A stretch of DNA of 64,000 nt from an uncultured Oscillospiraceae bacterium (GCA_934646115.1 CAKUEM010000003.1:80-64079); one strand, 5' to 3'. Shown: positions 5,224 to 26,677, counted from the first letter of the stretch. Numbers and translations are program-made. The notes: a model not told the origin generated them from the letters alone.

Positions 5224-5253
5224 AAAAAGCTCCCTAAGAACGGGAGCTTTTTT
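5224..5253. terminator. Bidirectional Rho-independent terminator
   Basis: AAAAAGCTCCC (5224-5234), loop TAAGAAC, GGGAGCTTTTT (5242-5252). It lies between convergent genes and overlaps the stop of the minus-strand GT2 gene. Confidence 0.8.
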
Positions 5254-7302: not shown

Positions 7303-7392
7303 GATCCTCTCCCTTCCGGCGCGCGTTGTGCGCGCTTTCTGGAGGTATTATAACACAGAATAACCGTGGAGACAAAAGAAAAAGGAAAATAT

Positions 7393-7421
7393 TTGACAAA
7401 ATACGAAAAATATTGTATGAT
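7393..7421 (+). promoter_or_regulatory. Sigma-70-type promoter of the polysaccharide operon
   Basis: TTGACA (7393-7398), 17-nt spacer, TATGAT (7416-7421), in an AT-rich divergent intergenic region. Confidence 0.6.
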
Positions 7422-7505
7422 AAAGAAAAAATAAAGATAGGTAAACTTATTGAAAGATAAGGACACAAAGTCATCGTGCCTAAGGCTTTATGCTATGGTT
7501 GACAG

Positions 7506-7562
7506 ACTGCAATTTGCAAAGACGCTCGGTTTTGAGCTTGCTTTACTGATTGCAGTTTTTTT
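7506..7562 (+). terminator. Intrinsic terminator inside the operon leader (attenuator/antitermination target candidate)
   Basis: ACTGCAAT (7506-7513) pairs with ATTGCAGT (7549-7556). Inner GCAA/TTGC and GCTC/GAGC pairs extend the stem. It is followed by T7 (7556-7562) and lies 47 nt upstream of the ATG at 7609. Confidence 0.65.
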
Positions 7563-7608
7563 ATTACCGTTTTTAGCGCGGCAAGGGCGGCGATGACTGA
7601 GGAGGTTT

Positions 7609-8643
7609 ATGAAGGAAAAATATTATTGTGGGCTTGATCTTGTAAAGCTGTTTTGCGCAATTTTGGTTGTGTGCATTCATACCGAGCCGTTTCTCTCTGT
7701 CAGCCCGGCGCTGAATTCGCTCACGGTGAATTATCTCTGCCGCGTGGCGGTGCCGTTCTTTTTTATCTCGTCCGGATTTCTGGCGTTTCGCAAGAATGGG
7801 CGCGGCGTGTGCGGTTATATTAAAAAGCTTCTGAAATTATATCTCATCTGGTCTGTCGTTTATTTCCCGCTTACCATGCGAGTCATGAAGTGGGCTTACG
7901 GCGCGGGCGGCATGGACGCTGCGCTGCGCGTGCTGCTCAACTGGGCGAAGAACATGATTTTTTCCGCGGGGTATGGCGTTTTGTGGTATCTGCCGGCAAC
8001 GATCGTGGCGGTCGGTATCGTTTGGCTGCTGCAAAAATGGGGGCTGCGTTTGCGCGGCGTGATCTGCGTGGGGGCGCTGCTTTATTGCGTGGGGCTTTTG
8101 GGGCAAAGTTATTTTGGCCTGATCACCCCGCTGCGCGCGTATCCTGCGTTATGGAATGCGCTGCGGGCGGTTTATCACCTGATCGGCACCACGCGAAACG
8201 GCGTGTTTGAGGGCGTGATCTTCATCGCGCTTGGTGCGCAGCTCGCGCAGAGTGGGCGGCGTATTCCGCTGCGGCGCGCGCTTTTTGGGTTTGCGGTTTC
8301 AATGCTCGCGCTGCTGGGCGAGATCGCACTGGTCACGTGGCTCGAATGGAAGCTTGCCTATGACATGTATCTGATGCTGGTTCCGAGCGTGCTTTTCCTG
8401 ATGCTTGCTGCGCTGAACATGCCTGATTTCAATGTGCGCCTGTGCAAGACGCTGCGTCCGTATATTGCGCTGATTTATTTTTCACATATGCTGTTTGTGG
8501 AGCTATGGCGGCTTACGCCGCTGCGAGAGGCGAATTCGCTGCTCTTTTTTGGGGCAACGCTCGCCGGCACAGTGGCGTTTGATACGCTCATCATACGGCT
8601 ATCCCGCACGCGGCGGTTCGCCTTTTTAAACAATCTGTTTTAG
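7609..8643 (+). CDS. Membrane acyltransferase (acyltransferase_3 family)
   Basis: GAGGAGG RBS. Polytopic membrane protein with GLDLVKLFCAILVVCIHT near the N-terminus. Confidence 0.75.
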   Translation: MKEKYYCGLDLVKLFCAILVVCIHTEPFLSVSPALNSLTVNYLCRVAVPFFFISSGFLAFRKNGRGVCGYIKKLLKLYLIWSVVYFPLTMRVMKWAYGAGGMDAALRVLLNWAKNMIFSAGYGVLWYLPATIVAVGIVWLLQKWGLRLRGVICVGALLYCVGLLGQSYFGLITPLRAYPALWNALRAVYHLIGTTRNGVFEGVIFIALGAQLAQSGRRIPLRRALFGFAVSMLALLGEIALVTWLEWKLAYDMYLMLVPSVLFLMLAALNMPDFNVRLCKTLRPYIALIYFSHMLFVELWRLTPLREANSLLFFGATLAGTVAFDTLIIRLSRTRRFAFLNNLF

Positions 8644-8659
8644 GAGGATTGCATCCGGC

Positions 8660-10186
8660 ATGCTGCGCACACACGCGAAGAAGATTAAATTCAACTTAAT
8701 ATCCGCTGTGCTCTGCCAGGTGGTCACGATCGCGATCGGATTTATTTTGCCGCGACTGTACCTTGAGAATTTCGGCTCGACGGTCAATGGCGTGCTGTCT
8801 ACGATCAAGCAGATTTTTACGTATCTTTGTCTGCTTGAGGCGGGCATCGGGCTTGCAACCGCGCAGGCGCTGCTTAAACCGGTCGCGCAGAGTGATTATG
8901 CAAGCGTAAACGGAATTTTAAGCGCAACCAAGCGGCATTATGAAAAAACCGGCGTAATTTATGCGCTTTCCGTGCTTGCGATCGCGCTGTTTTACGGGTT
9001 TGCGGTTGATACCGGGCTTGCGCCGTATACAGTGATCGCGCTGGTGCTGCTCAACGGGATTCCTTCCTTGGTCACGTTTTTTGTGCAGGGGAAATATCAG
9101 ATCCTGATGGAAACAGACGGGCGGCAGTATGTGATCACCAATTCGCAGATCGCGCTTCAAATTGTAAGTGGTTTTGGCAAGATCGCAGTGCTGCTGCTGA
9201 CGGATAATTTAATTCTGGTGCAGGCGTCATATTGCCTGTTCGCGGTGTTGCAGCTTTTGTATCTCACGGTTTACGCGCGGCGAACATATCGCTGGCTGGA
9301 TCTTCGCGTTGCGCCGGATACCCGCGCGATCGCGCAGAAAAATTCTGTGCTTGTGCATCAGATCTCTTCAATGATTTTTAATAATACAGACATTTTGCTG
9401 CTTTCGTTTCTTTGCGATTTCCGCGTGGTCAGCGTGTATTATATCTATAATTTGTTTTTTTCGCAGGTCGAGCTGTTTGTGAGCGGGCTTGCCAAGGGGC
9501 TTCATTTCGCGCTGGGACAGCTGTTTTCGGTGGATCGCGCGCGCTTTCTTGAGAAATTTTCGGTATATGAGATGTGCTATATCGCGGTGAATTTTGCGAT
9601 ATATACGCTGATGTGCGTATTCTTGCTGCCGGTTATTCAAATTTATACGGGCGGGATCTCGGATGCGAATTATATTAACCCGCTGCTGCTGTTTTTGTTT
9701 GTACTCGCAAAGCTGTTTCATTGCGGCAAGCTGCCGGTCAACCAGGTGGTGGAATATTCCGGGCATTTTTCGAATACCGCGTGGCAGGCGGTTTCGGAAA
9801 TGGTGATCAACATTACGGTTTCTGTCGTTTGCATCCTGCGCTGGGGCATTTGCGGCGCATTGATCGGAACGATCGCGGCGCTTGTGTTCCGAGCAGTCGC
9901 GATTATCGACTTTTCCAACCGCAAGATCCTGCGCCGCAGTGTTTGGAATACATATGCGCTGTGGCTCATTAACGGCGCGGTGTTTACCGCGATCTTTCTG
10001 ATTTTCGGCACGACGTATTTTTGCGATTTGCGGTTTGGCGCGCTCCTTTGGCGCGGCGTGCTGCATGCGCTTTGGATCGTTCCGCTTTATTTGACGGCGA
10101 ATTTGGCGCTTCAGCCGAAGCGCGCGCGGCTGCTGCTGCAGATGTTGAAACGAAAGGAGAAGATACATGAGCCAGTGCATAAATAA
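8660..10186 (+). CDS. wzx: Polysaccharide flippase (Wzx, MOP superfamily)
   Basis: About 12-14 TM helices; N-terminus KFNLISAVLCQVVTIAIGFILPRLYLENFGSTVNG is typical of polysaccharide biosynthesis/export proteins. Confidence 0.75.
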   Translation: MLRTHAKKIKFNLISAVLCQVVTIAIGFILPRLYLENFGSTVNGVLSTIKQIFTYLCLLEAGIGLATAQALLKPVAQSDYASVNGILSATKRHYEKTGVIYALSVLAIALFYGFAVDTGLAPYTVIALVLLNGIPSLVTFFVQGKYQILMETDGRQYVITNSQIALQIVSGFGKIAVLLLTDNLILVQASYCLFAVLQLLYLTVYARRTYRWLDLRVAPDTRAIAQKNSVLVHQISSMIFNNTDILLLSFLCDFRVVSVYYIYNLFFSQVELFVSGLAKGLHFALGQLFSVDRARFLEKFSVYEMCYIAVNFAIYTLMCVFLLPVIQIYTGGISDANYINPLLLFLFVLAKLFHCGKLPVNQVVEYSGHFSNTAWQAVSEMVINITVSVVCILRWGICGALIGTIAALVFRAVAIIDFSNRKILRRSVWNTYALWLINGAVFTAIFLIFGTTYFCDLRFGALLWRGVLHALWIVPLYLTANLALQPKRARLLLQMLKRKEKIHEPVHK

Positions 10187-10697
10187 AGACCTGTATCGCT
10201 GGTATGGCGATGCGGGCGAGGATCTTCTGCATCGTTTATTTCGCCCGGGGGAACTGAAATTTTTACTTGCGCTTCGCAAGGCGCAGAAGAGCAAAAATCC
10301 GTTTGTGCAGCTGCGCCTTCGCCGCCTGTCTGCCAAGACCGGGATCCAGATCCGCCCGCGTACAAGCATTGGCGAGGGGCTTTATATCGGTCATACCGGG
10401 CGGCTGATCATTAATCCGGAGGCGAAGCTCGGGCGCAATGTCAACTTGGCGACCGGTGTAACGATCGGGCAGGAAAACCGTGGCGCGCGAAAAGGCAACC
10501 CCACGATTGGCGACGAGGTGTGGATCGGGACGAACGCGGTGATCGTTGGCAATATCACGATCGGAAATGACGTGCTGATCGCGCCGCTCTCTTTTGTTAA
10601 CTTTGACGTTCCGGATCATAGCATCGTGCTGGGAAATCCGGCGCGGATCATTCCACGCGCACATGCGACCGAGGGATATATTGAAAATAAGGTTTGA
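10167..10697 (+). CDS. Hexapeptide-repeat O-acetyltransferase (serine acetyltransferase-like)
   Basis: Left-handed beta-helix repeats (IGDEVWIGTNAVIVGNITIGNDVLIAPLS). Confidence 0.8.
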   Translation: MSQCINKDLYRWYGDAGEDLLHRLFRPGELKFLLALRKAQKSKNPFVQLRLRRLSAKTGIQIRPRTSIGEGLYIGHTGRLIINPEAKLGRNVNLATGVTIGQENRGARKGNPTIGDEVWIGTNAVIVGNITIGNDVLIAPLSFVNFDVPDHSIVLGNPARIIPRAHATEGYIENKV

Positions 10698-10702
10698 AGA
10701 AT

Positions 10703-11440
10703 ATGAGTATACCAAAAAAAATTCATTATTGCTGGTTTGGAAACGCACCGCTGCCCCGGTCGGCGGAGCGATGCATCGCCTCGTGGCGGAAGCATTGCCC
10801 GGAGTATGAGATCATCCGCTGGGACGAGAGTAATTTGGATTTGAAAGAAAATTTATATGCATCACAGGCGTATGAAGCGAAAAAATGGGCGTTTGTCAGC
10901 GATTATTTTCGCCTAAAGATCGTTTATGAGCAGGGCGGCGTGTATCTCGATACCGATGTAGAGCTGCTTTGCAGCTTAGATGCGCTGACTGAACAGTACG
11001 ACGGTTTTTTCGGCTATGAAAACGATACGATGATCGCAACCGGGCTGGGCTTTGGCGCGACGGCGGGGAATCGATTCGTGCAGGCGATGCTGGAAGCGTA
11101 TCGGGATATCCCGTTTACACTTGGCGAAAACCAATATGACGAAACGCCGTGCCCGCGGCGCAATACCGACGCGCTCCTGCGCCTGGGGCTTGACCCGGCG
11201 ATCAAAAATCAGGTGATCGACCGCGTGTGTTTTTTAGAGGAGAACGTGCTTTGCCCGCTCAGCTTCTTCACCGGGAAGAAGAATATTACAGAAAAAACGA
11301 TTTCCATCCATCATTATAACTCCTCGTGGTGCAGTGATGTGACGCGGCGCACGAAGCGCCTGAAACGCTTGATCGGCGTGAAAAACTATGACTTTCTTTA
11401 TGGAAAGTTCTTGCATAAATCGAAAAGGTGGGAATGGTAG
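10703..11440 (+). CDS. Glycosyltransferase (GT32-like, DXD sugar-binding region)
   Basis: IPKKIHYCWFG ... SDYFRLKIVYEQGGVYLDTDVE. The ATG at 10703 is preferred over the TTG at 10694. Confidence 0.75.
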   Translation: MSIPKKIHYCWFGNAPLPRSAERCIASWRKHCPEYEIIRWDESNLDLKENLYASQAYEAKKWAFVSDYFRLKIVYEQGGVYLDTDVELLCSLDALTEQYDGFFGYENDTMIATGLGFGATAGNRFVQAMLEAYRDIPFTLGENQYDETPCPRRNTDALLRLGLDPAIKNQVIDRVCFLEENVLCPLSFFTGKKNITEKTISIHHYNSSWCSDVTRRTKRLKRLIGVKNYDFLYGKFLHKSKRWEW

Positions 11441-12120
11441 TGCCTTATTTGGAGTATGAATTGGTGGATCGGCGGACCGCCAAGCGCATGGAGGGAATAT
11501 TAGAGAAGTCTTACGCCACCTATTGGAAGAAAAAACGGATATTCGACGTGATCGTTACCGGGCTTATGCTGATCGTTTTGATCCTCCCGATGCTATTGAT
11601 CGGGCTGATCATCTGGATAGACGACCCGCACGGCAGCCCGATTTACCGGCAAGTGCGCGTGGGGCGGCACGGCGAGACGTTTTTTATGTATAAATTCCGC
11701 TCGATGTATGTGGATGCAGACGCGAGAAAAAACGAGCTGCTTGCGCACAATGAAATGGACGGTCCGGTATTTAAAATGAAAGACGATCCGCGTATCACGC
11801 GGGTGGGCAGTTGGATCCGCAAATGCTCGATCGATGAGCTGCCGCAGTTATTTAACGTTTTTGTTGGGAATATGAGTCTGGTCGGTCCGCGGCCGCCGCT
11901 TCCGGAGGAGGTGCTGGAATATACGGATTACGAAAAGCTTCGGCTTCTTGTGACGCCCGGTATTACCTGCACCTGGCAGATCGCGCCGCATCGAAACGAC
12001 ATTTCGTTTGAGAAATGGATCGAGATGGATCTTACATACATTGAAACGCGCACCACATGGCAGGATATTCAAATTATCTGTAAAACCCCGCTTGCCATGC
12101 TGAAGGCGACCGGCAGATAG
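11428..12120 (+). CDS. Undecaprenyl-phosphate sugar phosphotransferase (small bacterial sugar transferase, initiating enzyme)
   Basis: One N-terminal TM helix, then PIYRQVRVGRHGETFFMYKFRSM, DELPQLFNVFVGNMSLVGPRPP. Confidence 0.9.
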   Translation: MGMVVPYLEYELVDRRTAKRMEGILEKSYATYWKKKRIFDVIVTGLMLIVLILPMLLIGLIIWIDDPHGSPIYRQVRVGRHGETFFMYKFRSMYVDADARKNELLAHNEMDGPVFKMKDDPRITRVGSWIRKCSIDELPQLFNVFVGNMSLVGPRPPLPEEVLEYTDYEKLRLLVTPGITCTWQIAPHRNDISFEKWIEMDLTYIETRTTWQDIQIICKTPLAMLKATGR

Positions 12121-12128
12121 GAGATCAT

Positions 12129-13277
12129 ATGAATATTGCTATGCTTGGGCATAAGGCGATCCCATCCACGCGCGGCGGGATCGAGACTGTGCTGACAAAT
12201 TTATGCCCGCTTCTGGTGCAGCGCGGCGCAGCAGTGACCTGCTATAATCGTTCGGCAGATCAGGTCGCGCCGGAGTTTTTGCCAGAGATTCAGAACAAAA
12301 GATTTCGCGGTGTGCGGCTGAAAAAAGCGCGCACGCTGCCGATGCGGGGCGTATCCGCCATGCTTGCGTCTTTTACCGCGGCGATCGCGTGTGCATTTTC
12401 GCGCTATGACGTGGTGCATTTCCATGCGGAGGGTCCGTGCGCCGCGATGTTTTTGCCAAAGCTATTTGGGAAAAAATGCGTGGCGACTGTGCATGGGCTG
12501 GACTGGCAGCGTGAGAAATGGGGGCATGGTCTTGGCTCGAAATACATTCATTTTGGCGAAAAAATGCTGGCGCGGCATGCCGATGCGGTGATCGTGCTCA
12601 GCGAGAGCGCGCGCGAATATTTTGCGCAGACCTATCAGAGAGAAACGGTTGTGATCCCGAATGGGATCGCGCGCCCGACGCGCCTTGAGGCGGATCTGAT
12701 TCAAAAACGGTTTGGGTTGAGCCGCGAGTCATATTTATGCCTGGCGTCGCGCCTGACCGAGGAAAAGGGCGTGCATTATCTGATCGATGCGTTCCGCAGG
12801 ATCGATACGGAAAAGAAGCTTGTGATCTGCGGGGACAGCAGCGATACCGACGCGTACGTTGCGCGGCTTCGCGAGATGGCGCAGGGCGATCCGCGCATTC
12901 TATTCACCGGGTTTCTTTCCGGCGATGTACTTGCGGAAATATACAGCAATGCGTATCTGGTGTGTCTGCCCTCTAACATTGAAGGAATGTCGCTCAGCCT
13001 GCTCGAGGCGCTTGCGTATGGAAATGCGGTCGTCTGCTCGGATATTCCTGAAAATACGAGCGTGTGCGGCGAATATGCGCTGACGTTTCGGAAGGGCGAT
13101 GCAGACGATCTGCGCGATAAGCTGGAATATTTACTGCAACATGAGGAGATAAAAAACGCGTATCAAAGCCGCGCGGCGGATTATATTTGCGGACGCTTTT
13201 CCTGGGAGAGCACCGCAGACGCAACGCTGGCGCTTTATCAAACGCTGCTGCAAGGCGGAAAGGAGACGGGCCAATGA
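12129..13277 (+). CDS. Glycosyltransferase family 4 (WchF/RgpA-like N-terminus)
   Basis: MLGHKAIPSTRGGIETV N-terminus and a C-terminal EGMSLSLLEALAYG (E-x7-E) motif. Confidence 0.85.
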   Translation: MNIAMLGHKAIPSTRGGIETVLTNLCPLLVQRGAAVTCYNRSADQVAPEFLPEIQNKRFRGVRLKKARTLPMRGVSAMLASFTAAIACAFSRYDVVHFHAEGPCAAMFLPKLFGKKCVATVHGLDWQREKWGHGLGSKYIHFGEKMLARHADAVIVLSESAREYFAQTYQRETVVIPNGIARPTRLEADLIQKRFGLSRESYLCLASRLTEEKGVHYLIDAFRRIDTEKKLVICGDSSDTDAYVARLREMAQGDPRILFTGFLSGDVLAEIYSNAYLVCLPSNIEGMSLSLLEALAYGNAVVCSDIPENTSVCGEYALTFRKGDADDLRDKLEYLLQHEEIKNAYQSRAADYICGRFSWESTADATLALYQTLLQGGKETGQ

Positions 13278-14488
13278 CCGGAAATTATGATTCTATCTGG
13301 GAAAATATTTGCAAAGCGCTGGAAAAGGTGCTTCCGGCAGAGAGCTATGAGGTTTGGAAGCAGGCGTTTTCCCTGTTGAAGCACAAGGGGAGCAATTTCG
13401 TGTTTTTCTGCACCGATGAAGTGCGCGGTAAGACATTTTTAGAATGCTACCAGCGCGAGGTTTATGCGGCGGTTTGCACGGTCAGCGCGCAGCTTGCAAG
13501 CGTGAAATATCGTTTTGCGGCAGGAGACAAGAAAAAGCGCAAACGCGCGGCGGGTTATCGTCACGGAATAAAAAGCGTTGTGGCGTCGCTCATATGCTTG
13601 CTTTTCGCAACGATTTTTGCGATCGTCGGCATCAATTATGTTGCCAATTTGCATTTTAAAGAGAATTTTTATTCGGTTAGCGCAAATCGCGCCTATGATA
13701 ATTTCAGAATCGTTCAGATCTCTGATCTGCACAGCACATCATATGGCAAGAATAATGAGAAGCTGACCGAGCGGCTTGCTGCGCTGAAGCCGGACCTGAT
13801 CATGATGACCGGCGATTGCCTGGATATAAACGGCTCAGAGGACGAGATGATGGCGCTTTGCAAGACGCTTTCTGAGCTTGCGCCGACATATTATATTTAC
13901 GGCAACAACGAATGTCAGCGCGCGTTCGATTGCGATATGACGCTGGAGGTGCTGGATGAAAAGCTTGGCGTATCCAACGACAAGCGCGACCCGAAAAAGC
14001 TGTATGCCGCAGACAACGGGCTGCGGGCAAAGCTGGAATCTGCCGGCGTGCGTGTGTTGTTTAACGAATCGGATATGGTGGAAACCAAGAAAACGCGGGT
14101 GAAAATTTTTGGAACACTGACGTCGAACCCATCGGCGTTTTGGCCGTATGCGGGCGAGGCGTTCAACGAATTTTTAAACAGCGAGGAAGATGTGGTGAAA
14201 GTTTTTCTCTGCCACGAGCCGCTGCTTTTTGAAACGCTTTCGGAAAAGACATGGGGCGATCTTGCGCTGTGCGGTGATACGCATGGGGGCATAGTGCGGC
14301 TGCCGGGGACGGGCGCGGTGTATTCGCGCAATTTCGGGATGTTCCCGGAACGGAACAATCACTTGATTTACGGGAAATATCAGGTGGGCGAAACCGATGT
14401 GATCGTAAGCTCGGGGCTAACGAACCGCGGATGGATCCGCATTTCCAATCAGCCGGAGCTTGCTGTGATCGATGTGAATAAATATTAA
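13274..14488 (+). CDS. Membrane-anchored metallophosphoesterase with an N-terminal DnaA-domain-I-like module
   Basis: ATGA overlap with the upstream stop. Residues ~5-85 resemble DnaA N-terminal domain I. One TM helix (VVASLICLLFATIFAIVGI). MPE motifs QISDLH, TGDCLD, YGNNE, CHEP, GDTHGG. Confidence 0.7.
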   Translation: MTGNYDSIWENICKALEKVLPAESYEVWKQAFSLLKHKGSNFVFFCTDEVRGKTFLECYQREVYAAVCTVSAQLASVKYRFAAGDKKKRKRAAGYRHGIKSVVASLICLLFATIFAIVGINYVANLHFKENFYSVSANRAYDNFRIVQISDLHSTSYGKNNEKLTERLAALKPDLIMMTGDCLDINGSEDEMMALCKTLSELAPTYYIYGNNECQRAFDCDMTLEVLDEKLGVSNDKRDPKKLYAADNGLRAKLESAGVRVLFNESDMVETKKTRVKIFGTLTSNPSAFWPYAGEAFNEFLNSEEDVVKVFLCHEPLLFETLSEKTWGDLALCGDTHGGIVRLPGTGAVYSRNFGMFPERNNHLIYGKYQVGETDVIVSSGLTNRGWIRISNQPELAVIDVNKY

Positions 14489-14506
14489 CGAAGGGAGTGA
14501 CTGCCG

Positions 14507-15883
14507 GTGATGTTCAAACTTGTTCAGTTTGCCGTTTTTGCGGTGACAGCGTTTTGTTTGCTGTTTGCGGGGATTCGGCTTGCAAAGCTTGCGCGCAACC
14601 AGATAAAGAGCAAAACGAAGGCGCAGCTGCGCAGGGCAAAGCTTGTGCGCTTTGATGCGCTCGCGCTCGCGCTGGTATTTGCTTTTGTATATACTGTTTT
14701 CCTGTATTTTGAAACGGAAAAACAGTCGTCTGCGGTGATCAGCTTAAATTATGCGGAAGCCTCGCAGGGGCAGAATGTAAACGGGACCCGGTATAATATG
14801 GGCGAGATCATCTGCGACGAGGTGCTTGCGCGCACGATCGAAAAGGGCGGAATGACCGACATTTCGGTGGAGGATTTAAAACGCTGTGTGAGCGTGAGTC
14901 CTCTGATCCAGGGGAACGCTTATTCAAAAGACGCATATCATATTTCAACCGAGTTCGTTCTCTCGTATCAGGGGAGCGGGAAGCTTACAAAATACCCGTC
15001 GGATACCGTGGCGCAGCTGCTTTGCAACTCCTATCGTGATTATTACTTTGATCAATACGTCAATGATTTTGATATTTCGCTCGACGGCTATGACGAAATG
15101 CTCAAGCAGCTGGATTATATCGACGCGACAACGCTTTTAAGCAAAAAAGCAAACAAGATTTTTAATTACCTTTGCGGATTGCAAAGTAAAAACTCTTCGT
15201 TTGTTTCTTCAAATGGAACAACGTTTGCGTCGGTCAGCGCAAAGGTACATAACTTAAACGCCGCGCAAATCAACGAAACGTTGTTCTCATACGTGCTGCA
15301 AAACGGAATTTCCAAAAACACGCAGCAGCTTTTAAAACGCTATCAATATGCCAATGTGAGCGCGAGCTTTGATAAGCAGGAAATGGATCAGTCTTACAAG
15401 ACAACGAATAACGCCATTGCGAAATATGACAAGGACATGGCGCGCGTTGTGCTGGTGCCGACGTGGGACAACGACGGCAAGTATTATATGGGGCGCACGA
15501 AGGTCGGAATCGATACGCTCTCGGTGCAGTCGGTGGGGTTCAGCGAAAAGATCGCGGAAATCGAAAAAGGCATTCAGGATAACAGCTTAAAGCTTGCAAA
15601 ATTCGGCGCGGCGGTCAACAACACGCCTGCAAGCCGGGAATATGCCGACGGGCTGATCGAGAATGTTCAGAAGTCGCTGAAGACGCTGGCAGAAGAGGCG
15701 CGCGCGATCGGGCGCGAGTATTATTCCAATCAGATGAATCAGTGCATTTCGGCAACGGTTTATAAAGTCAGCCTGTCTTCGCAATACAAAACGATCCTCT
15801 TAGTTTTTGTATGCGCGTATCTTGCCATGCTGGCGCTGAAAACCGCAAATGAGATCGCCAGGGAAGGGAGAACAGGGGGTTAA
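14507..15883 (+). CDS. Polysaccharide co-polymerase-like membrane protein (two terminal TM helices, large external domain)
   Basis: TM at both ends. The post-TM segment SSAVISLNYAEASQGQ parallels ASAVINYSYDAAEQGK of the next gene. No confident family assignment. Confidence 0.5.
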   Translation: MMFKLVQFAVFAVTAFCLLFAGIRLAKLARNQIKSKTKAQLRRAKLVRFDALALALVFAFVYTVFLYFETEKQSSAVISLNYAEASQGQNVNGTRYNMGEIICDEVLARTIEKGGMTDISVEDLKRCVSVSPLIQGNAYSKDAYHISTEFVLSYQGSGKLTKYPSDTVAQLLCNSYRDYYFDQYVNDFDISLDGYDEMLKQLDYIDATTLLSKKANKIFNYLCGLQSKNSSFVSSNGTTFASVSAKVHNLNAAQINETLFSYVLQNGISKNTQQLLKRYQYANVSASFDKQEMDQSYKTTNNAIAKYDKDMARVVLVPTWDNDGKYYMGRTKVGIDTLSVQSVGFSEKIAEIEKGIQDNSLKLAKFGAAVNNTPASREYADGLIENVQKSLKTLAEEARAIGREYYSNQMNQCISATVYKVSLSSQYKTILLVFVCAYLAMLALKTANEIAREGRTGG

Positions 15884-15884
15884 T

Positions 15885-17759
15885 ATGGAAGAGAAAAAAA
15901 TATTTCAGACGCTAAAACGCCTGCTCCCGGGGATTATTGTGATCTCTCTGCTTGTTTCGCTGTTTATTCATTTTTCGCTCAAGAAAAACTGCACGTATAC
16001 AGCGTCTGCGGTGATCAATTACAGTTATGACGCGGCAGAGCAGGGCAAAACGCCGATCAATACGGATCTCGATGTCAATGAGATCAAGTCCTCCGCGATC
16101 ATCAGCAAGGTAATCGACCAGCTTTCACTGTCTGACCGATATTCGGTTGATAAGCTGATCTCGCGCATAACGATCACGGCATGTCCGGATGCAGACAAGG
16201 AAGAGCAAAAGGCGGCAAAGCTTAAAGAGGGCGAGGAATACGTGTATGTTCCAACGACCTATATCGTCGCCTTTACCGCAACCAACAGCGAGGGCGAGAG
16301 CTTTGCGCAGACCATGCTGGACGAGCTGCTCGACACCTATTTCTCCGTATTTGGCGAGAACTATATCAATGTCGATCACATCAGCAATAAAATTGAAAAA
16401 ATTTATGAAAATCAATATGATTATCTGGAAATGGTGGAGTATATCGACACCTGCATTGAGGAAACGATCACCGCGCTGTATCAGCGCAATGCGGCGTATC
16501 CGTATTACCGCTCCACACAGACCGGGACATCGTTTGACGACCTGGTCGATGAGTTTGATTTTATCCGTTCGGTCACGCTGCGCGATCTGTATGCAAAGAT
16601 CTATCAATATCAGATCACGAAAAGCCTGAGCCTGCTGAACGCGAACTACAACACGCGGATCGATAACGATGCAATCAAATCGACCAATGAGCTTGCGATG
16701 TTTGCAGATATCGAAGAAGTGGTCACGGCGTATGTAACAAAAATGCGCGAGTCGGGCAATACCGATATCAGCCACGAATATATCTTAAACGAGCTGCATA
16801 GCAAGGATCTGACGGACGGGGAAGGCAACGTGATCACAAAAAGCGACCAGACCGTAACGTATGACGAGCTGATCTATGCATGGCGCGACCATAATTTAAA
16901 CGATAAGCTCGCTGCGATCGATACCACCTATTGCCGCTACGTGATCCAGTCGTTTAACACCTGCACCGGCGCGTGCGGCGGGACGTGCAAAAATTCCGGA
17001 AAGACCTGCACGGCGGTATCGAACAAGAATTATGCATCGATCGTGAGCGAAACGGAAGAGCAGATCCGCAAAGTTGTGGATGACCTTTCGGCGCTGTACC
17101 AGAGAACGGTGCAGACCAACAGCGAATATAACGAATATTTGGGCTGTAAGAATATCGAAACGCTTTCCACGGCGTCTACAGCCGTGAGCACCAACGTGAC
17201 GTTATACAGCATCATTGCGTTTGTGTTTATCATGGTCGTATGCTGCGGCGGCGCGCTGCTTGTCGGCCGCTTTAACGACATTATTGTTGCGAATTTCTAT
17301 ACGGATGCAAAAACCGGCTTCTATAATCGCGCGTATTTCGACAAATATCTTAAGAAGCGCGGACGTAATATTTTAGATGACGGCACGGTTATGGCGTCTG
17401 TTTCGATCGCGAATCAGCGCCAGATCAACGAAAGCGCCGGGCGCGACGTAGGCGATGCGGTGATTCGCCTGTTCGCGGACGAATTGAAGCGCGCTTTTGT
17501 GCGGATGAAGCCAATGTGCGTGTATAATGAAAACTCGCATTTTGTACTCGTGCTGGAAAAGACGGATGCAATCACCGTGCAGGATGCGCTTGCGATGTTC
17601 GCGGTTGCCATCGATGGGCGCGAGAGCTGCGAGCAGGTTGAGATCGTGTATAAAATGGGCGTGGCAGAAACGTTCCGCGATCGCGTGAATTCGGCGCGCG
17701 TGCTGCTGGTCGAAGCGATCAAAAACGCCAAGGAATATCGCTCGGAGGCGAAAAAATAA
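15885..17759 (+). CDS. Wzz-like chain-length determinant fused to a degenerate (inactive) GGDEF domain
   Basis: N-terminal TM plus Wzz-like segment, second TM (LYSIIAFVFIMVVCCGGALLV), then DAKTGFYNRAYFDKYL ... GDAVIRLFADEL ... CVYNENSHFVLVL ... KMGVAE, which is a GGDEF fold with the GG(D/E)EF motif lost. Confidence 0.75.
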   Translation: MEEKKIFQTLKRLLPGIIVISLLVSLFIHFSLKKNCTYTASAVINYSYDAAEQGKTPINTDLDVNEIKSSAIISKVIDQLSLSDRYSVDKLISRITITACPDADKEEQKAAKLKEGEEYVYVPTTYIVAFTATNSEGESFAQTMLDELLDTYFSVFGENYINVDHISNKIEKIYENQYDYLEMVEYIDTCIEETITALYQRNAAYPYYRSTQTGTSFDDLVDEFDFIRSVTLRDLYAKIYQYQITKSLSLLNANYNTRIDNDAIKSTNELAMFADIEEVVTAYVTKMRESGNTDISHEYILNELHSKDLTDGEGNVITKSDQTVTYDELIYAWRDHNLNDKLAAIDTTYCRYVIQSFNTCTGACGGTCKNSGKTCTAVSNKNYASIVSETEEQIRKVVDDLSALYQRTVQTNSEYNEYLGCKNIETLSTASTAVSTNVTLYSIIAFVFIMVVCCGGALLVGRFNDIIVANFYTDAKTGFYNRAYFDKYLKKRGRNILDDGTVMASVSIANQRQINESAGRDVGDAVIRLFADELKRAFVRMKPMCVYNENSHFVLVLEKTDAITVQDALAMFAVAIDGRESCEQVEIVYKMGVAETFRDRVNSARVLLVEAIKNAKEYRSEAKK

Positions 17760-17775
17760 GCGAGGAGGTGACGGT

Positions 17776-19047
17776 GTGTTGCAGAGCAAGGCGGCCGATG
17801 CGGTCGGTAAGATATATTTTACCGCGCTTGCATTTCTGATGTACTTTTTCATCAACGAAGTGGCATATATCGGCGGCATTGGGGTAACATTCCGTCACAT
17901 ATTCGCGCTTTTGATCATTGCGTCCGCTTTTGTTTATTTTCTGATCCGGTCTGACGTTGGGCGCGCGCTGGTGTCGGTGAAATCCGCGCTGGTTTTTGCA
18001 ACGCCGCTGCTTGTGGTCGTGGTCGCGTCGATGCTGGTTTGGGTCGTTGACCAGAGCGGCACGGCGACCATCGCGCGCGGAATTTCCGGTTGTCTTGTGT
18101 ATACAAACTGGCTTTCCTGCGCGCTTGCGGCGGGCGCGCTGCTCTATGTGTTCGGCGAGGCGGGCATCTGGTATAACCTGCTCGCACTGGTCGGTGCGAA
18201 CCTGCTGATGATCATTCAGATCATTCGCGAGGATGGTCTCGTGGTATTTTTTCAAGAGTTTTTTGAGCTGGTCGCATCATTTGCCGCGAATACCGGGGAA
18301 GTAATCATCAAGGCGGAGATCCATGAGTTGGCATTCTGCCTTGGCGCATATTTGATCTATATGCTTATTCGGCCGAAACGCGCCGCCTGGTTTTGGATGC
18401 TGTTTGCGCTTGCTGCGTTCTGCTTTTTGGTGGCGTTTAAGCGAATCGCCATGATTGCAATGATGGGCGTGACGGTTATCTGGCTGATCCTGTGGATCGC
18501 AAAAAAAGTTTCGCAGCGCGCGGTATGCCGAACCGCAAATACCATAATGCTGATTTTAGTGGCGCTATTTTTCCTGTATATTGCGGCGATCAAGGCGGAC
18601 CTGTTCACCGTGCTGGAAAAAGCGGGAATCGACACAAGCGGTCGCGCATTCGTGTATGAGCAGGTGGACCGTTATTATGAATTTTCCCCTGACTTTTTGG
18701 GCAACGGGATCGGGTTTTTGACCTATCAGCTCAATGAGACCGTGTCTGTCGGCGTTTCTGCGGTACATAACGATTTGCTGCAGTTTTTTATCGACCTCGG
18801 CTTTTGGGGCTATCTGTTCTGGCTATTGTCGATGACCGTGCTGCGCACCGCGTATTTCGGGCGCGGCGGCGATGGCGATTCGGCGATGGTTGCGGCATTG
18901 TTGAGTTTATATTTATTTATCGTTTCCAGCACGGATAATACGATCAACTATCCGCTGCTGAATACCGTGCTCGGCGTGATTATAATCGGAAATCATTATA
19001 CCGAACGCGTGGCGCAGGCGAGCGTCCATTTCAGGAGAATCCAATGA
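17776..19047 (+). CDS. wzy: O-antigen polymerase/ligase family protein (Wzy-like)
   Basis: About 10-12 TM helices and the AVHNDLLQFFIDLGFWGY motif typical of the Wzy_C/O-antigen ligase domain. GTG start after GAGGAGGTG. Confidence 0.75.
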   Translation: MLQSKAADAVGKIYFTALAFLMYFFINEVAYIGGIGVTFRHIFALLIIASAFVYFLIRSDVGRALVSVKSALVFATPLLVVVVASMLVWVVDQSGTATIARGISGCLVYTNWLSCALAAGALLYVFGEAGIWYNLLALVGANLLMIIQIIREDGLVVFFQEFFELVASFAANTGEVIIKAEIHELAFCLGAYLIYMLIRPKRAAWFWMLFALAAFCFLVAFKRIAMIAMMGVTVIWLILWIAKKVSQRAVCRTANTIMLILVALFFLYIAAIKADLFTVLEKAGIDTSGRAFVYEQVDRYYEFSPDFLGNGIGFLTYQLNETVSVGVSAVHNDLLQFFIDLGFWGYLFWLLSMTVLRTAYFGRGGDGDSAMVAALLSLYLFIVSSTDNTINYPLLNTVLGVIIIGNHYTERVAQASVHFRRIQ

Positions 19048-20267
19048 GAATTTTAATGGTTAACAAGTTTCTCTATCCGCGCGGCGGCGCGGAAAGCTAT
19101 ATGCTCAAGGTGGGTGCATATTTCCAGGCGCAGGGTCATACGGTGGAGTATTTCGGTATGTATGACGCGCGCAACACAGTGGGAAACCACTGCGGGATCA
19201 GCACGCGAAATATGGAGTTTCATTCCACATCGCTAAAGCGCCTGCTTTACCCGTTTCAAATTCTGTATTCATTTGAGGCGCGGCGCAAGATCGGGCGCGT
19301 GCTGGATGCGTTTCGCCCGGATGTTGTGCATATGAATAACATCAATTTTCAACTGACGCCTGCGATCATTGACGCGGTAAAGCGGCGGAACATTCCGCTC
19401 GTGCAGACCGTGCATGATTATCAGATGGTCTGTCCGAACCACCTGCTGTATGATTTTGAGGCGCAGCATGTGTGCGAGAAATGCGTGGGGCGCAGGAAAT
19501 GGAACTGTATCAGGCACCGCTGCATCCACGGATCGCGGATCAAAAGCATTCTGGGCGCGGCGGAGGCGCTGCTCTATCGCGTGCGGCATACATATCGAAA
19601 CGTGGATCGCTATATCTGTCCCAGCCGCTTTTTATATGGAAAGCTGCTTGCCGAGCAGCCGGAAACATATCGCGACCGGGCGATCGTGCTTCCGAATTTT
19701 ATTGAAAAGCGCGCGAAGCCCGCGCAAACGGAGCGGCGATTCTCATACCCGTATCTCGCGTTTGCGGGGCGGCTGAGCGAAGAGAAGGGAACGCGGATCT
19801 TGGCGGAGACGGCGCGCTTGTTGCCGGATGTACATTTCGTTGTGATGGGAGAAGGCCCGGACCGTGCGGCGCTTGCGGGACTGCCCAATGTGGAGCTGAC
19901 CGGCTTTCTGACCGGCGCGGCGCTCGACGAGATCATGGCGGGGGCAGAGGCGATGGTCGTTCCGTCCGTTTGCTTTGAAAACTGCCCGCTTGCAATTTTG
20001 GAGGCACAGATGTTTGGCGTACCGAGCGTGACGATGAATATGGGCGGTATGGCAGAGCTTGTGCGCGATCATGAAACCGGCGTGCTGGCGCGCTCTACCG
20101 CGGCGGAGGATTTTGCGGCGGCTGTGCGCGAGATTTTGAGCGATCCTGTGGCGCTTGCACGAATGAAAGAAAACTGCCGAGCGGCGGCGCAGCGCGCGAT
20201 GACGATCGATCGCTATTGCAAGGAAGTATTGCAAATTTATCAAACAGTAAGGACATGCCATGATTAA
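19044..20267 (+). CDS. Glycosyltransferase family 4 with a Cys-rich insertion
   Basis: MRILMVNKFLYPRGGAE N-terminus and a C-terminal FENCPLAILEAQMFG (E-x7-E). Insertion CPNH..CEKC..C..HRC. Confidence 0.85.
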   Translation: MRILMVNKFLYPRGGAESYMLKVGAYFQAQGHTVEYFGMYDARNTVGNHCGISTRNMEFHSTSLKRLLYPFQILYSFEARRKIGRVLDAFRPDVVHMNNINFQLTPAIIDAVKRRNIPLVQTVHDYQMVCPNHLLYDFEAQHVCEKCVGRRKWNCIRHRCIHGSRIKSILGAAEALLYRVRHTYRNVDRYICPSRFLYGKLLAEQPETYRDRAIVLPNFIEKRAKPAQTERRFSYPYLAFAGRLSEEKGTRILAETARLLPDVHFVVMGEGPDRAALAGLPNVELTGFLTGAALDEIMAGAEAMVVPSVCFENCPLAILEAQMFGVPSVTMNMGGMAELVRDHETGVLARSTAAEDFAAAVREILSDPVALARMKENCRAAAQRAMTIDRYCKEVLQIYQTVRTCHD

Positions 20268-21315: not shown

Positions 21316-21318
21316 ACA

Positions 21319-22317: not shown

Positions 22318-22330
22318 GAGGGAGTAAATC

Positions 22331-24779: not shown

Positions 24780-24780
24780 C

Positions 24781-25440: not shown

Positions 25441-25473
25441 AAGAGCAAGTCATCGCGCAAGGGGGGTACATTT

Positions 25474-26514: not shown

Positions 26515-26515
26515 C

Positions 26516-26544
26516 TTGACAAATCGGCGCGTTTGCGCTATACT
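26516..26544 (+). promoter_or_regulatory. Sigma-70-type promoter candidate
   Basis: TTGACA (26516-26521), 17-nt spacer, TATACT (26539-26544), starting 2 nt after the upstream stop codon. Confidence 0.5.
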
Positions 26545-26585
26545 TCTCATACCTCTCGGAGGCGAATCATTCACAGGAAATGATA

Positions 26586-26634
26586 GCCGGATAAGAGACG
26601 GGCTGAAACGCCCGCTTCTTATCCGGCATTTTTG
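26586..26634 (+). terminator. Strong intrinsic terminator (end of EPS operon and/or attenuator of the MATE gene)
   Basis: GCCGGATAAGAG..CGGGC tgaaa GCCCG..CTTCTTATCCGGC forms a nearly continuous ~18-bp stem followed by ATTTTT. Confidence 0.8.
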
Positions 26635-26677
26635 TAATTCACGGCGGCGCGCCGCCGGGTAAAGGAAAGGATGCAGG

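What the first reader, a model, noticed from the sequence alone, without database searches (positions are those of the whole stretch)
7393..7608. A strong intrinsic terminator sits inside the leader of a 17-gene polysaccharide operon
What the sequence shows: a good promoter (TTGACA-17-TATGAT, 7393-7421) lies ~190 nt upstream of the first gene at 7609.

Inside that leader is an extended hairpin. ACTGCAAT pairs with ATTGCAGT (7506-7556), and inner GCAA/TTGC and GCTC/GAGC pairs extend it. It is followed by T7.

Downstream, 17 genes (7609-26514) overlap or are separated by 33 nt or less. I noticed no other convincing terminator before 26586.

Inference: RNA polymerase must read through this leader terminator to express ~19 kb. 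That is the logic of processive antitermination, known for long polysaccharide operons (EAR RNA in the B. subtilis eps operon; LoaP/UpxY NusG paralogs).

No NusG paralog is encoded in the window. The leader does not obviously resemble an element I can name, so it may be an undescribed antitermination or attenuation RNA.
Basis: partly seen in the sequence, partly recalled or inferred. Interest (0 to 1): 0.55.

Follow-up and report, generated by a model that had tools for sequence, protein, structure and literature searches.

The report
c-di-GMP riboswitch controlling a polysaccharide operon
The hairpin in this leader is the terminator half of an ordinary class I cyclic-di-GMP riboswitch, which most likely lets RNA polymerase read into a 17-gene polysaccharide operon only when c-di-GMP is high; it is a known element, not a new antitermination RNA.

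Summary
There is an 11/12 sigma-70 promoter (7393-7421), a hairpin plus U7 (7504-7562), and 17 tightly packed polysaccharide genes (7609-26514).

The leader is not an unnamed RNA. Positions 7430-7514 match the Rfam c-di-GMP-I (GEMM-I) aptamer over its full length (60.9 bits, gathering score 35, E 1.9e-9). The match has the GAAA tetraloop, the 11-nt receptor and the equivalents of the ligand-contact bases G20, A47 and C92.

The terminator's 5' arm (7504-7514) reuses the 3' strand of the aptamer's second helix and C7510, the C92 equivalent. The two folds therefore exclude each other. The GEMM discovery paper predicted this layout to be an ON switch, and it was shown to be one for Bc2 of Bacillus thuringiensis.

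Five further distinct lineages of the same operon, from gut Clostridia/Oscillospiraceae metagenomes, keep the promoter, aptamer, junction and T-run. Their terminator upper stems are unrelated in sequence but still pair. Other lineages of the operon lack the riboswitch.

I found no EAR RNA and no NusG paralog, and neither is needed. The operon also encodes an EAL protein and a conserved membrane protein with a degenerate GGDEF domain.

Verdict: new member of a known kind, low to moderate interest.

The parts
7393..7421 (+). Sigma-70-type promoter, TTGACA-17-TATGAT. The expected transcription start is about 7428, just before the aptamer.
   Evidence: 11/12 match. All six riboswitch-bearing lineages keep TTGACA-17/18-TAnnnT, 15-20 nt upstream of the G20-equivalent base.
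7430..7514 (+). c-di-GMP-I (GEMM-I) riboswitch aptamer. First hairpin 7441-7466 with GAAA tetraloop 7452-7455. Second hairpin 7469-7508 with the 11-nt receptor CCUAAG 7479-7484 / UAUGG 7494-7498. Equivalents of the Vc2 bases: G7440 = G20, C7464 = C44, A7467 = A47, G7501 = G83, C7510 = C92.
   Evidence: Rfam RF01051, 60.9 bits against gathering score 35, E 1.9e-9, model positions 1-87 of 87. Pair list. Residue mapping uses the same spacing as Vc2 and Bc1. Compensatory changes occur in both hairpins across relatives.
7504..7562 (+). Intrinsic terminator that serves as the expression platform. Lower stem 7504-7514 pairs with 7548-7558; there is an imperfect upper stem; U7 is at 7556-7562. The 5' arm overlaps the aptamer's second-helix 3' strand (7502-7508) and C7510.
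   Evidence: -19.9 kcal/mol, z -3.27. Conserved with six unrelated upper stems.
7563..7608 (+). Spacer to the start codon. It holds CGAUGACU 7591-7598, complementary to AGUCAUCG 7469-7476 (5' strand of the second aptamer helix), directly followed by the SD AGGAGG 7600-7605.
   Evidence: Duplex of -17.6 kcal/mol, reached by 0.05% of spacer shuffles. Not significant in L011 and absent from the short-spacer lineages, so its role is uncertain.
7609..26514 (+). 17-gene Wzy-type polysaccharide operon under the riboswitch. It encodes acyltransferases, a priming Bac_transf sugar transferase (11428-12120), GT4 and GT2 glycosyltransferases, Wzy_C (17776-19047), a metallophosphoesterase and two unassigned membrane proteins.
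   Evidence: Pfam and NCBIfam. Gene spacing at most 33 nt. Syntenic in all related loci.
15885..17759 (+). Conserved 624-aa membrane protein: TM segment, about 400-aa extracytoplasmic region, TM segment, then a degenerate GGDEF domain (NENSHF in place of GGDEF, no RxxD).
   Evidence: The family has 1113 members with no Pfam domain except GGDEF. It is present in the operon with and without the riboswitch.
23382..24779 (+). Protein with a TM segment, a degenerate GGDEF domain (ANHDF) and an EAL domain; a candidate c-di-GMP phosphodiesterase encoded inside the operon.
   Evidence: Pfam EAL 2.7e-51. Aligns to MorA and other active phosphodiesterases, keeping EVL, N, ExxE, DDFG, K, EGxE and QG, with one deviation KID to KIS.
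26586..26634 (+). Strong hairpin (GCCGGATAAGAG...CTTCTTATCCGGC) plus ATTTTTG; most likely the operon's own terminator.
   Evidence: Rfam gives only generic hairpin (miRNA-model) noise.

Best explanation
The leader is a class I cyclic-di-GMP riboswitch that controls transcription termination, most likely as an ON switch.

Transcription starts at about 7428 from the 7393-7421 promoter. The first roughly 85 nt fold into the GEMM-I aptamer (7430-7514).

Without ligand, the more stable terminator forms. Its 5' arm (7504-7514) takes over the 3' strand of the aptamer's second helix together with C7510, and RNA polymerase stops at the U-run 7556-7562.

With c-di-GMP bound, G7440, A7467 and C7510 contact the ligand and the aptamer helices are locked. 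The lower 11 bp of the terminator then cannot form. What remains is a weak upper hairpin that is not next to the U-run, so polymerase reads on into the 17-gene polysaccharide operon.

Shown here: the aptamer's identity, the overlap, the conservation and the covariation. Inferred: ligand binding, the direction of the switch, and the co-transcriptional kinetics.

High c-di-GMP would thus turn on surface polysaccharide synthesis. The operon-encoded EAL protein could provide negative feedback; that step is inference only.
For: Aptamer identity:
- RF01051 match of 60.9 bits against gathering score 35, E 1.9e-9 for the whole window, full model length.
- GAAA tetraloop, 11-nt receptor, and the G20/C44/A47/G83/C92 equivalents are present in the window and in all six lineages (residue roles from PMC4744006, PMC5888326, PMC11218506).

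Mutual exclusion of the two folds:
- The terminator uses 7504-7514, while the aptamer uses 7502-7508 and C7510.
- Unconstrained MFE is -33.6 kcal/mol with the terminator formed. It is -25.8 with both aptamer hairpins enforced and -18.2 when a closing helix is also enforced.
- The residual hairpin is -9.8 kcal/mol and is separated from the U-run.

Conservation:
- The aptamer scores 52-64 bits directly upstream of the same operon in L008/L014, L009/L010/L016-L021, L011, L012 and L022-L027.
- The GACAGACTGCAA junction is invariant.
- The six terminator upper stems are unrelated in sequence and all pair (-20 to -30 kcal/mol, z -3.3 to -7.9, 0 of 200 shuffles each).
- RNAalifold finds 7 pairs with compensatory changes.

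Precedent:
- Weinberg 2007 reports 78 of 322 GEMM instances with a terminator overlapping the 3' side of the second hairpin, and predicts that ligand increases expression (PMC1950547).
- Bc2 of B. thuringiensis is a class I riboswitch with a terminator platform, shown in vitro and in vivo to be an ON switch (PMC4933901).

Biology: c-di-GMP induction of exopolysaccharide synthesis is the general paradigm, and this operon family carries EAL and GGDEF genes.
Against: - No ligand binding or termination assay exists for this RNA.
- The closing helix (P1 of the crystal-structure nomenclature) is weak, AU-rich and not supported by covariation in these six lineages. With only the two Rfam hairpins enforced, a shortened hairpin from 7509 can still form 2 nt from the U-run. 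The ON prediction therefore leans on C7510 and the following bases being engaged in the bound state.
- In Clostridioides difficile, class I riboswitches function as OFF switches (PMC6200980), so the class alone does not give the direction.
- The second C of the Rfam-conserved 3' 'gCC' is A (7511) in this whole clade.
- Homologous operons in several lineages work without the riboswitch.
Confidence: 0.8

Rival explanations
1. It is the same c-di-GMP-I riboswitch but with the opposite sign. Ligand binding would favour termination (OFF switch), as in the C. difficile class I riboswitches, and the polysaccharide would be made at low c-di-GMP.
For: C. difficile class I riboswitches behave as OFF switches (PMC6200980). 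With only the two Rfam hairpins enforced, a truncated hairpin 7509-7553 can coexist with the aptamer and ends 2 nt from the U-run. RNAalifold also found a slipped register of the second helix (GUCA/UGAC) that is compatible with the full terminator.
Against: An OFF switch needs a separate antiterminator that forms when the aptamer is unfolded, and none is evident. Here the terminator competes directly with the aptamer, including the ligand-pairing C7510. That is the arrangement predicted to be ON (PMC1950547) and shown to be ON for Bc2 (PMC4933901). Repressing an EPS operon at high c-di-GMP would also run against the usual physiology.
Confidence: 0.09
2. One reading: an undescribed processive antitermination or attenuation RNA (EAR-like, or a LoaP/UpxY target) modifies RNA polymerase so that it ignores this and later terminators.
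For: The operon is long (about 19 kb), such systems are known for polysaccharide operons, and there is a terminator in the leader.
Against: The leader is fully accounted for by a known aptamer plus its terminator. There is no EAR or other antiterminator RNA hit at E up to 1 in 7300-7700. No NusG/KOW protein was found in the window. No convincing internal + strand terminators need bypassing. In L008, L009 and L012 the terminator is followed within 12-22 nt by the start codon, leaving no room for a further RNA element.
Confidence: 0.02
3. The aptamer senses a different cyclic dinucleotide, such as 3'3'-cGAMP as in GEMM-Ib, or is a specificity variant, because the clade departs from the consensus 3' 'gCC' (it reads GCA).
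For: A7511 replaces a highly conserved C next to the ligand-pairing C. GEMM-Ib shows that small changes in this scaffold can switch the ligand (PMC5888326).
Against: The bases reported to contact the ligand (the G20, A47 and C92 equivalents) are all the c-di-GMP type. From established knowledge (Kellenberger 2015; Nelson 2015; not re-read here), GEMM-Ib specificity is associated with A at position 20, and here that position is G7440. The operon carries EAL and GGDEF genes, which are c-di-GMP signalling genes.
Confidence: 0.04
4. The aptamer is a decayed relic and the hairpin acts as a constitutive partial terminator (simple attenuation that sets a low basal level).
For: Some lineages of the operon have no riboswitch at all, so the operon can function without it.
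Against: Scores sit far above the gathering threshold. All key bases are kept in six lineages whose first gene is only about 50% identical, there are compensatory changes in the helices, and the aptamer-terminator junction is invariant. Together these indicate purifying selection on a working switch.
Confidence: 0.03

Closest known systems
GEMM / c-di-GMP-I riboswitches with a terminator overlapping the second hairpin (Weinberg et al. 2007, PMC1950547; Rfam RF01051)
   Same: Same aptamer family: tetraloop-receptor subtype and AAA linker. [quoted passage not shown] Same 5' regulatory position, and the same predicted logic that ligand increases expression.
   Different: Nothing in kind. This instance heads a 17-gene Wzy-type polysaccharide operon in uncultured gut Clostridia/Oscillospiraceae. 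The clade reads GCA where the consensus has gCC.
Bc2 riboswitch upstream of cap in Bacillus thuringiensis BMB171 (PMC4933901)
   Same: A class I aptamer followed by an intrinsic terminator next to the ORF. Termination is the default and c-di-GMP causes read-through (repression/de-repression, ON switch). The host is a Firmicute.
   Different: Bc2 controls a single adhesin gene and has 76 nt between the transcription start and the aptamer. Here the aptamer begins at about +2 and the target is a 19-kb biosynthetic operon. Bc2 is experimentally validated and this one is not.
Class I c-di-GMP riboswitches of Clostridioides difficile, such as Cd1 upstream of flgB (PMC6200980)
   Same: Same aptamer class, same bacterial class (Clostridia), and control at the level of transcription.
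   Different: Those act as OFF switches on motility, adhesin and protease genes. In C. difficile the ON role is taken by class II riboswitches. Here a class I aptamer is wired as a presumptive ON switch for a sessile-lifestyle function.
EAR RNA of the B. subtilis eps operon, and LoaP/UpxY NusG-paralog systems (processive antitermination)
   Same: They serve the same overall need, which is expression of a long polysaccharide operon, and an RNA element sits at the operon's 5' end.
   Different: Those systems modify the elongation complex so that it ignores many downstream terminators, and they do not sense a small molecule. Here there is one local aptamer-versus-terminator choice, no EAR hit and no NusG paralog in the window.
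Listeria monocytogenes pssA-E operon with the degenerate-GGDEF receptor PssE (PMC4125290)
   Same: A Firmicute EPS operon that itself encodes a membrane-anchored, catalytically dead GGDEF protein, so c-di-GMP is linked to polysaccharide production at the protein level.
   Different: PssE keeps the RxxD I-site that binds c-di-GMP. The 624-aa protein here has no RxxD five residues upstream of its degenerate motif, so receptor function is unproven. Its large extracytoplasmic domain has no counterpart in PssE. I saw no mention of a riboswitch on the pss operon in the passages I read.

Membership tests
c-di-GMP-I (GEMM-I) riboswitch, Rfam RF01051 | Match to the family covariance model at or above the curated gathering score, over the full model | tested here: met
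   60.9 bits against 35, E 1.9e-9 (64 kb, both strands, 4227 families), model positions 1-87 of 87.
c-di-GMP-I (GEMM-I) riboswitch, Rfam RF01051 | Two adjacent hairpins joined by AAA. The first is a 2-bp plus 6-bp stem with a 3-nt internal loop and a GNRA tetraloop. The second carries a tetraloop receptor when the loop is GAAA (PMC1950547). | tested here: met
   First hairpin pairs 7441-7442 with 7465-7466 and 7446-7451 with 7456-7461. GAAA loop at 7452-7455. Linker AAA at 7467-7469. Receptor CCUAAG 7479-7484 / UAUGG 7494-7498.
c-di-GMP-I (GEMM-I) riboswitch, Rfam RF01051 | Ligand-contact bases G20, A47 and C92, and the interhelical C44-G83 pair of Vc2 (PMC4744006, PMC5888326) | tested here: met
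   G7440, A7467 (+27), C7510, C7464 and G7501 (C92 lies 9 nt after G83, as in the consensus). All are kept in six lineages.
c-di-GMP-I (GEMM-I) riboswitch, Rfam RF01051 | Helices supported by covariation among homologs | tested here: met
   RNAalifold on six leaders gives 32 pairs, 7 of them with changes on both sides, including 3 in the first hairpin. The sample is small and the sequences are related, so this is supportive rather than independent proof.
c-di-GMP-I (GEMM-I) riboswitch, Rfam RF01051 | 5' regulatory position, with an expression platform that competes with the aptamer | tested here: met
   The aptamer starts about 2 nt after the predicted transcription start. The terminator's 5' arm 7504-7514 overlaps aptamer positions 7502-7510.
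c-di-GMP-I (GEMM-I) riboswitch, Rfam RF01051 | Closing helix P1 formed by the 5' and 3' flanks (crystal-structure nomenclature) | tested here: inconclusive
   Only a weak AU-rich pairing can be drawn (7435-7438 with 7512-7515). There is no consistent register or covariation across the six lineages. The Rfam model does not include this helix.
c-di-GMP-I (GEMM-I) riboswitch, Rfam RF01051 | Selective, high-affinity binding of c-di-GMP and ligand-dependent gene control | not testable with these tools
   Needs in-line probing or ITC, plus transcription termination assays.
GEMM-Ib (3'3'-cGAMP riboswitch) | A instead of G at the position equivalent to Vc2 G20 (from established knowledge; not re-read here) | tested here: not met
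   G7440 in the window, and G in all six lineages.
EAR RNA (eps-associated RNA, processive antitermination) | Match to the EAR covariance model | tested here: not met
   cmscan of 7300-7700 against all 4227 Rfam families at E up to 1 returns only c-di-GMP-I and a sub-threshold RsmY hit. I am assuming EAR is in Rfam 15; the tool output does not list the families searched.
LoaP / UpxY NusG-paralog antitermination | A NusG paralog (NGN plus KOW domains) encoded at or near the head of the polysaccharide operon | tested here: not met
   No NusG/KOW Pfam hit in the 17 operon genes, the divergent genes, or the other window ORFs scanned. The related loci also show none among their called genes. The rest of the genome could not be checked.

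The most novel reading that the evidence does not exclude
c-di-GMP may act on this operon family at more than one level.

First, the riboswitch may be dual-acting in the window's lineage. When the terminator forms, the freed 5' strand of the second aptamer helix (7469-7476) could pair with 7591-7598, directly in front of the SD. That would also silence translation of any ligand-free transcripts that escape termination.

Second, the strongly conserved 624-aa protein (TM segment, about 400-aa extracytoplasmic domain, TM segment, degenerate GGDEF) could be an uncharacterised kind of nucleotide-sensing polysaccharide co-polymerase or export regulator. It would stand where Gram-positive systems normally have a PCP/BY-kinase pair. 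The riboswitch would then be an optional transcriptional layer that some lineages added on top.
Probability: 0.15. Interest if true: 0.55.

Novelty: new member of a known kind. Interest (0 to 1): 0.25.

Why it matters
For the scan, this removes a candidate "new antitermination RNA". Any leader-terminator finding should be checked against Rfam before it is called novel.

Biologically it is a tidy but unsurprising example. A second-messenger riboswitch gates a whole 19-kb surface-polysaccharide pathway in uncultured gut Clostridia/Oscillospiraceae.

Three points give it modest value:
- It is a class I aptamer wired as a presumptive ON switch in Clostridia. In the best-studied member, C. difficile, class I riboswitches are OFF switches.
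- Homologous operons occur with and without the riboswitch. This offers a natural comparison of how the regulatory layer is gained or lost.
- The operon family always carries a highly conserved degenerate-GGDEF membrane protein of unknown role and an EAL protein. This hints at multi-level c-di-GMP control and feedback in capsule or EPS production by abundant gut commensals.

Tried and rejected
- Gene-1 homologs from the genome and metagenome collections (L001-L006, 43-49% identity): no aptamer, and their upstream regions do not align with the window's leader. They are uninformative for covariation but show the riboswitch is not universal in this operon family.
- RsmY hit at 7426-7533: 17.7 bits against a gathering score of 57, dismissed as noise.
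- Rfam E-value scan of 26480-26700: only generic miRNA-hairpin hits well below threshold, so this is a plain hairpin.
- Closing helix P1: I tried to define it by hand and by constrained folding and found no register shared by the six lineages. Left as inconclusive.
- Pairing between the pre-SD segment and the aptamer strand: significant in the window (p about 0.0005), but p 0.15 in L011 and absent from the short-spacer leaders. Not accepted as part of the conserved mechanism.
The single-sequence model has mean pLDDT 36 and pTM 0.22, so no fold search was run.
- Homology search with the N-terminal 470 residues of that protein: 1113 relatives, none with a Pfam domain other than GGDEF. The idea that it is Wzz/PCP-like stays untested.
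- Exact look-up of gene 1: not on record. Cluster look-up of the 100% identical P0074 and its relatives returned no names or accessions. Taxonomy rests on the names of more distant hits and loci: Eubacteriales, Clostridia and Oscillospiraceae MAGs.

Full report
**1. Observation**

The region reads as the first-stage reader described it.
- Promoter: TTGACA (7393-7398), 17 nt, TATGAT (7416-7421). This is an 11/12 match and ranks among the best sites in a 20-kb scan of both strands.
- Hairpin: ACTGCAAT (7506-7513) pairs with ATTGCAGT (7549-7556). Folding extends the lower stem to 7504-7514 paired with 7548-7558, with an imperfect upper stem, and T7 at 7556-7562.
- Stability: the hairpin folds at -19.9 kcal/mol (z = -3.27), and none of 200 dinucleotide shuffles folds as well.
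- Operon: 17 ORFs run from 7609 to 26514 with gaps of at most 33 nt, once gene 7 is started at ATG 13274 and gene 9 at 15885.
- Gene content: they encode a Wzy-type polysaccharide pathway, with acyltransferases, a Bac_transf priming transferase, GT4 and GT2 glycosyltransferases, Wzy_C and others.
- Terminators: the simple scan finds no convincing + strand terminator inside the operon. A strong hairpin plus T-run follows at 26586-26634.

**2. What the leader is**

A scan of the whole window against Rfam 15 gives exactly one hit above a gathering score. It is the c-di-GMP-I riboswitch aptamer (RF01051) at 7430-7514 on the + strand: 60.9 bits against a threshold of 35, E 1.9e-9, covering model positions 1-87 of 87 (alignment).

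Mapping the model's structure onto the sequence gives the following:
- First hairpin 7441-7466, with a GAAA tetraloop at 7452-7455.
- The AAA linker.
- Second hairpin 7469-7508, with the canonical 11-nt tetraloop receptor (CCUAAG 7479-7484, UAUGG 7494-7498).

The bases reported to contact the ligand in Vc2 are G20, A47 and C92, and C44-G83 forms the interhelical pair (PMC4744006, PMC5888326, PMC11218506). They correspond to G7440, A7467, C7510 and C7464-G7501. The spacing is the same as in Vc2 and Bc1. The aptamer begins about 2 nt after the expected transcription start.

So the leader does resemble a nameable element. It is a standard class I c-di-GMP riboswitch of the tetraloop-receptor type.

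**3. How the hairpin relates to the aptamer**

The terminator's 5' arm (7504-7514) is made of the last five bases of the aptamer's second-helix 3' strand (7502-7508), followed by G7509, C7510 (the ligand-pairing C92 equivalent) and the next four bases. The two structures cannot coexist.

Constrained folding of 7428-7565 gives these energies:
- -33.6 kcal/mol for the unconstrained fold, in which the terminator is formed.
- -25.8 kcal/mol when both aptamer hairpins are enforced.
- -18.2 kcal/mol when a closing helix using 7512-7515 is also enforced.

In the last state only a -9.8 kcal/mol upper hairpin remains, and it is separated from the U-run. The default is therefore termination. A ligand-stabilised aptamer would prevent it, which makes this an ON switch.

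This is the arrangement described when GEMM was discovered. In 78 of 322 instances the 5' side of a terminator stem overlaps the 3' side of the second hairpin, and the authors predicted that higher ligand concentrations increase expression (PMC1950547). It was demonstrated for Bc2 of Bacillus thuringiensis, where termination is relieved by c-di-GMP in vitro and in vivo (PMC4933901).

The direction is inferred from this architecture and not from the class. In C. difficile, class I riboswitches act as OFF switches (PMC6200980).

There is one caveat. With only the two Rfam hairpins enforced, a shortened hairpin starting at 7509 can still form 2 nt from the U-run. The closing helix is weak and not supported by covariation. 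The ON call therefore rests on C7510 and its neighbours being engaged in the bound state.

**4. Related loci**

Homologs of gene 1 at 43-49% identity (L001-L006) sit in the same syntenic operon but have short or unrelated leaders with no aptamer.

Closer or different lineages were found through the protein database. All have the aptamer directly upstream of the same operon:

| Loci | Relation to the window | RF01051 score |
|---|---|---|
| L007 | gene 1 99% identical; leader differs at three positions, all downstream of the aptamer | 60.9 bits |
| L008 / L014 | gene 1 53% identical | 62.4 bits |
| L009 / L010 / L016-L021 | gene 1 51-52% identical | 58-61 bits |
| L011 | gene 1 50% identical | 59.4 bits |
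| L012 | gene 1 51% identical | 63.6 bits |
| L022-L027 | found through the GGDEF-fusion protein (71% identical) | 52.2 bits, with a roughly 37-nt insertion in the second hairpin |

Across the six distinct lineages the layout is constant:
- TTGACA-17/18-TAnnnT, placed 15-20 nt before the G20 equivalent.
- The aptamer, with all five key bases.
- An invariant GACAGACTGCAA junction.
- A hairpin whose lower stem is conserved. One 3'-arm change, A to G in L022, keeps pairing as a G-U.
- An upper stem that is completely different in each lineage yet always pairs (-20 to -30 kcal/mol; z -3.3 to -7.9; 0 of 200 shuffles in every case).
- A run of 6-8 T.

RNAalifold on six leaders finds 32 pairs, 7 with changes on both sides.

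In three lineages the start codon follows the T-run by only 12-22 nt. That leaves no room for any further leader element.

The 55% lineage (L028/L029) and the 48-49% lineage (L015) lack the riboswitch. The element has therefore been gained or lost within the operon family.

**5. The processive-antitermination idea**

- An E-value scan of 7300-7700 against all Rfam families finds nothing except c-di-GMP-I and a sub-threshold RsmY hit at 17.7 bits.
- No NusG/KOW domain appears in the operon genes, the divergent genes or the rest of the window's ORFs. None appears in the called genes of the related loci either.
- No internal terminators were seen that would require processivity.

The specific mechanism and the claim of novelty are not.

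**6. Context and side observations**

The window is a Firmicutes-type chromosomal segment (gdpP-rplI, tilS-hpt-ftsH, obg, rplU) with 54% G+C. Named relatives are Clostridia, Oscillospiraceae or 'Eubacteriales' gut MAGs.

The operon itself encodes two c-di-GMP-domain proteins.
- Gene 15 (23382-24779) has a TM segment, a degenerate GGDEF domain and an EAL domain. The EAL domain aligns with active phosphodiesterases and keeps nearly all catalytic motifs. If it is active, an ON riboswitch would drive a negative feedback loop. That is inference only.
- Gene 9 (15885-17759) is a 624-aa protein with two TM segments flanking a roughly 400-aa extracytoplasmic region, and a C-terminal GGDEF domain that is degenerate (NENSHF, metal-binding Asp lost, no RxxD). 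It is far better conserved than gene 1 (77% and 67% identity, against 53% and 49%). It belongs to a family of more than 1000 proteins with no other Pfam domain. It is present in the operon whether or not the riboswitch is. Its function is unknown, and structure prediction from the single sequence failed.

In the window's own leader, the 5' strand of the second aptamer helix (7469-7476) is complementary to 7591-7598, directly before the SD. The duplex is -17.6 kcal/mol and only 0.05% of shuffles reach it. This could add a translational layer in the OFF state, but it is not conserved in the other lineages.

**7. Verdict**

The finding is a correctly observed structure with a known explanation. 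It is a class I c-di-GMP riboswitch with the commonest terminator-type platform, very probably an ON switch, heading a polysaccharide operon in an uncultured gut Clostridium-class bacterium.

It is a new member of a known kind. Interest is low to moderate (0.25). The value lies mainly in the presence/absence polymorphism of the riboswitch across homologous operons, and in the uncharacterised degenerate-GGDEF membrane protein that is a fixed part of this operon family.

Noticed in passing
window 15885-17759 (+): A 624-aa protein with a TM segment, a roughly 400-aa extracytoplasmic region, a second TM segment and a degenerate GGDEF domain (NENSHF, no RxxD, metal site lost). It is much better conserved than the rest of the operon (67-77% identity against about 50% for gene 1). 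It belongs to a family of more than 1000 proteins of about 625 aa from Clostridia/Oscillospiraceae, none with a Pfam domain other than GGDEF. No BY-kinase or Wzz Pfam hit was seen in the operon, so it might fill the co-polymerase/regulator role. The ORF list starts it at 15849, but alignment with homologs puts the start at 15885.
   Followed up: partly
window 23382-24779 (+): A protein with a TM segment, a degenerate GGDEF domain (ANHDF) and an EAL domain, encoded inside the c-di-GMP-controlled operon. The EAL motifs are nearly complete (EVL, N, EVLE, DDFGEG, EGAE, QG), with KID changed to KIS. It could be a phosphodiesterase giving negative feedback. An EAL gene sits at the same position in all related operons, often followed by further GGDEF genes (L016-L029).
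   Followed up: partly
window 7469-7476 and 7591-7598: AGUCAUCG, the 5' strand of the second aptamer helix, is perfectly complementary to CGAUGACU immediately upstream of the SD AGGAGG (7600-7605). The duplex is -17.6 kcal/mol and is reached by 0.05% of shuffled spacers. It is part of the MFE fold of the whole leader together with the terminator. A similar but non-significant pairing exists in L011, and the short-spacer lineages have none.
   Followed up: partly
window 26516-26634 (+): Directly after the operon's last stop codon there is an 11/12 promoter-like site (TTGACA-17-TATACT, 26516-26544). It is followed by a strong hairpin (26586-26627) plus ATTTTTG, and then by a MATE transporter gene (26678-28039). 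The hairpin is most simply the operon terminator. A promoter placed upstream of it would be odd. Rfam gives only generic hairpin noise.
   Followed up: partly
L001-L005, L015, L028-L029 versus L007-L012, L014, L016-L027: The same syntenic EPS operon occurs with the riboswitch in six lineages and without it in at least two. In L028/L029 a GGDEF-PAS-GGDEF-EAL gene sits immediately upstream of the EPS genes on the same strand. This is a natural gain/loss series for a regulatory RNA.
   Followed up: partly
L022-L027, about 1448-1572: In this lineage the aptamer's second hairpin carries a roughly 37-nt insertion (a GC-rich extra stem) between the receptor halves. The Rfam score drops to 52 bits, but all key bases are kept.
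   Followed up: no
window 7499-7508: The 3' strand of the second helix contains two alternative partners for the 5' strand: UGAC at 7500-7503 and GACU at 7505-7508. RNAalifold chose the slipped register (GUCA/UGAC), which is compatible with a fully formed terminator. It may represent the ligand-free fold. The sequence is invariant across lineages, so covariation cannot test it.
   Followed up: no
window 8660-10186 and 14507-15883 (+): Two conserved operon proteins (508 and 458 aa) have no Pfam or NCBIfam hit. The first has about 10 hydrophobic segments, so it could be a flippase or polymerase-like membrane protein. Both are present in every related operon.
   Followed up: no
window 5234-7302 (-) and 7318-7335: A divergently transcribed pair, GT2 plus Acyl_transf_3, is conserved next to the riboswitch promoter in several lineages. 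Its own promoter-like site is TTGTCT-17-TATAAT with TG, at 7375-7347 on the - strand. A GCGCGC-N5-GCGCGC palindrome lies in its short 5' UTR.
   Followed up: no
window 36529-40679: Other nucleotide-signalling genes lie nearby: a Crp/Fnr-type cNMP-binding regulator (36529-37284) and a GdpP-type c-di-AMP phosphodiesterase (38226-40217) next to rplI. This is an ordinary Firmicutes arrangement.
   Followed up: no
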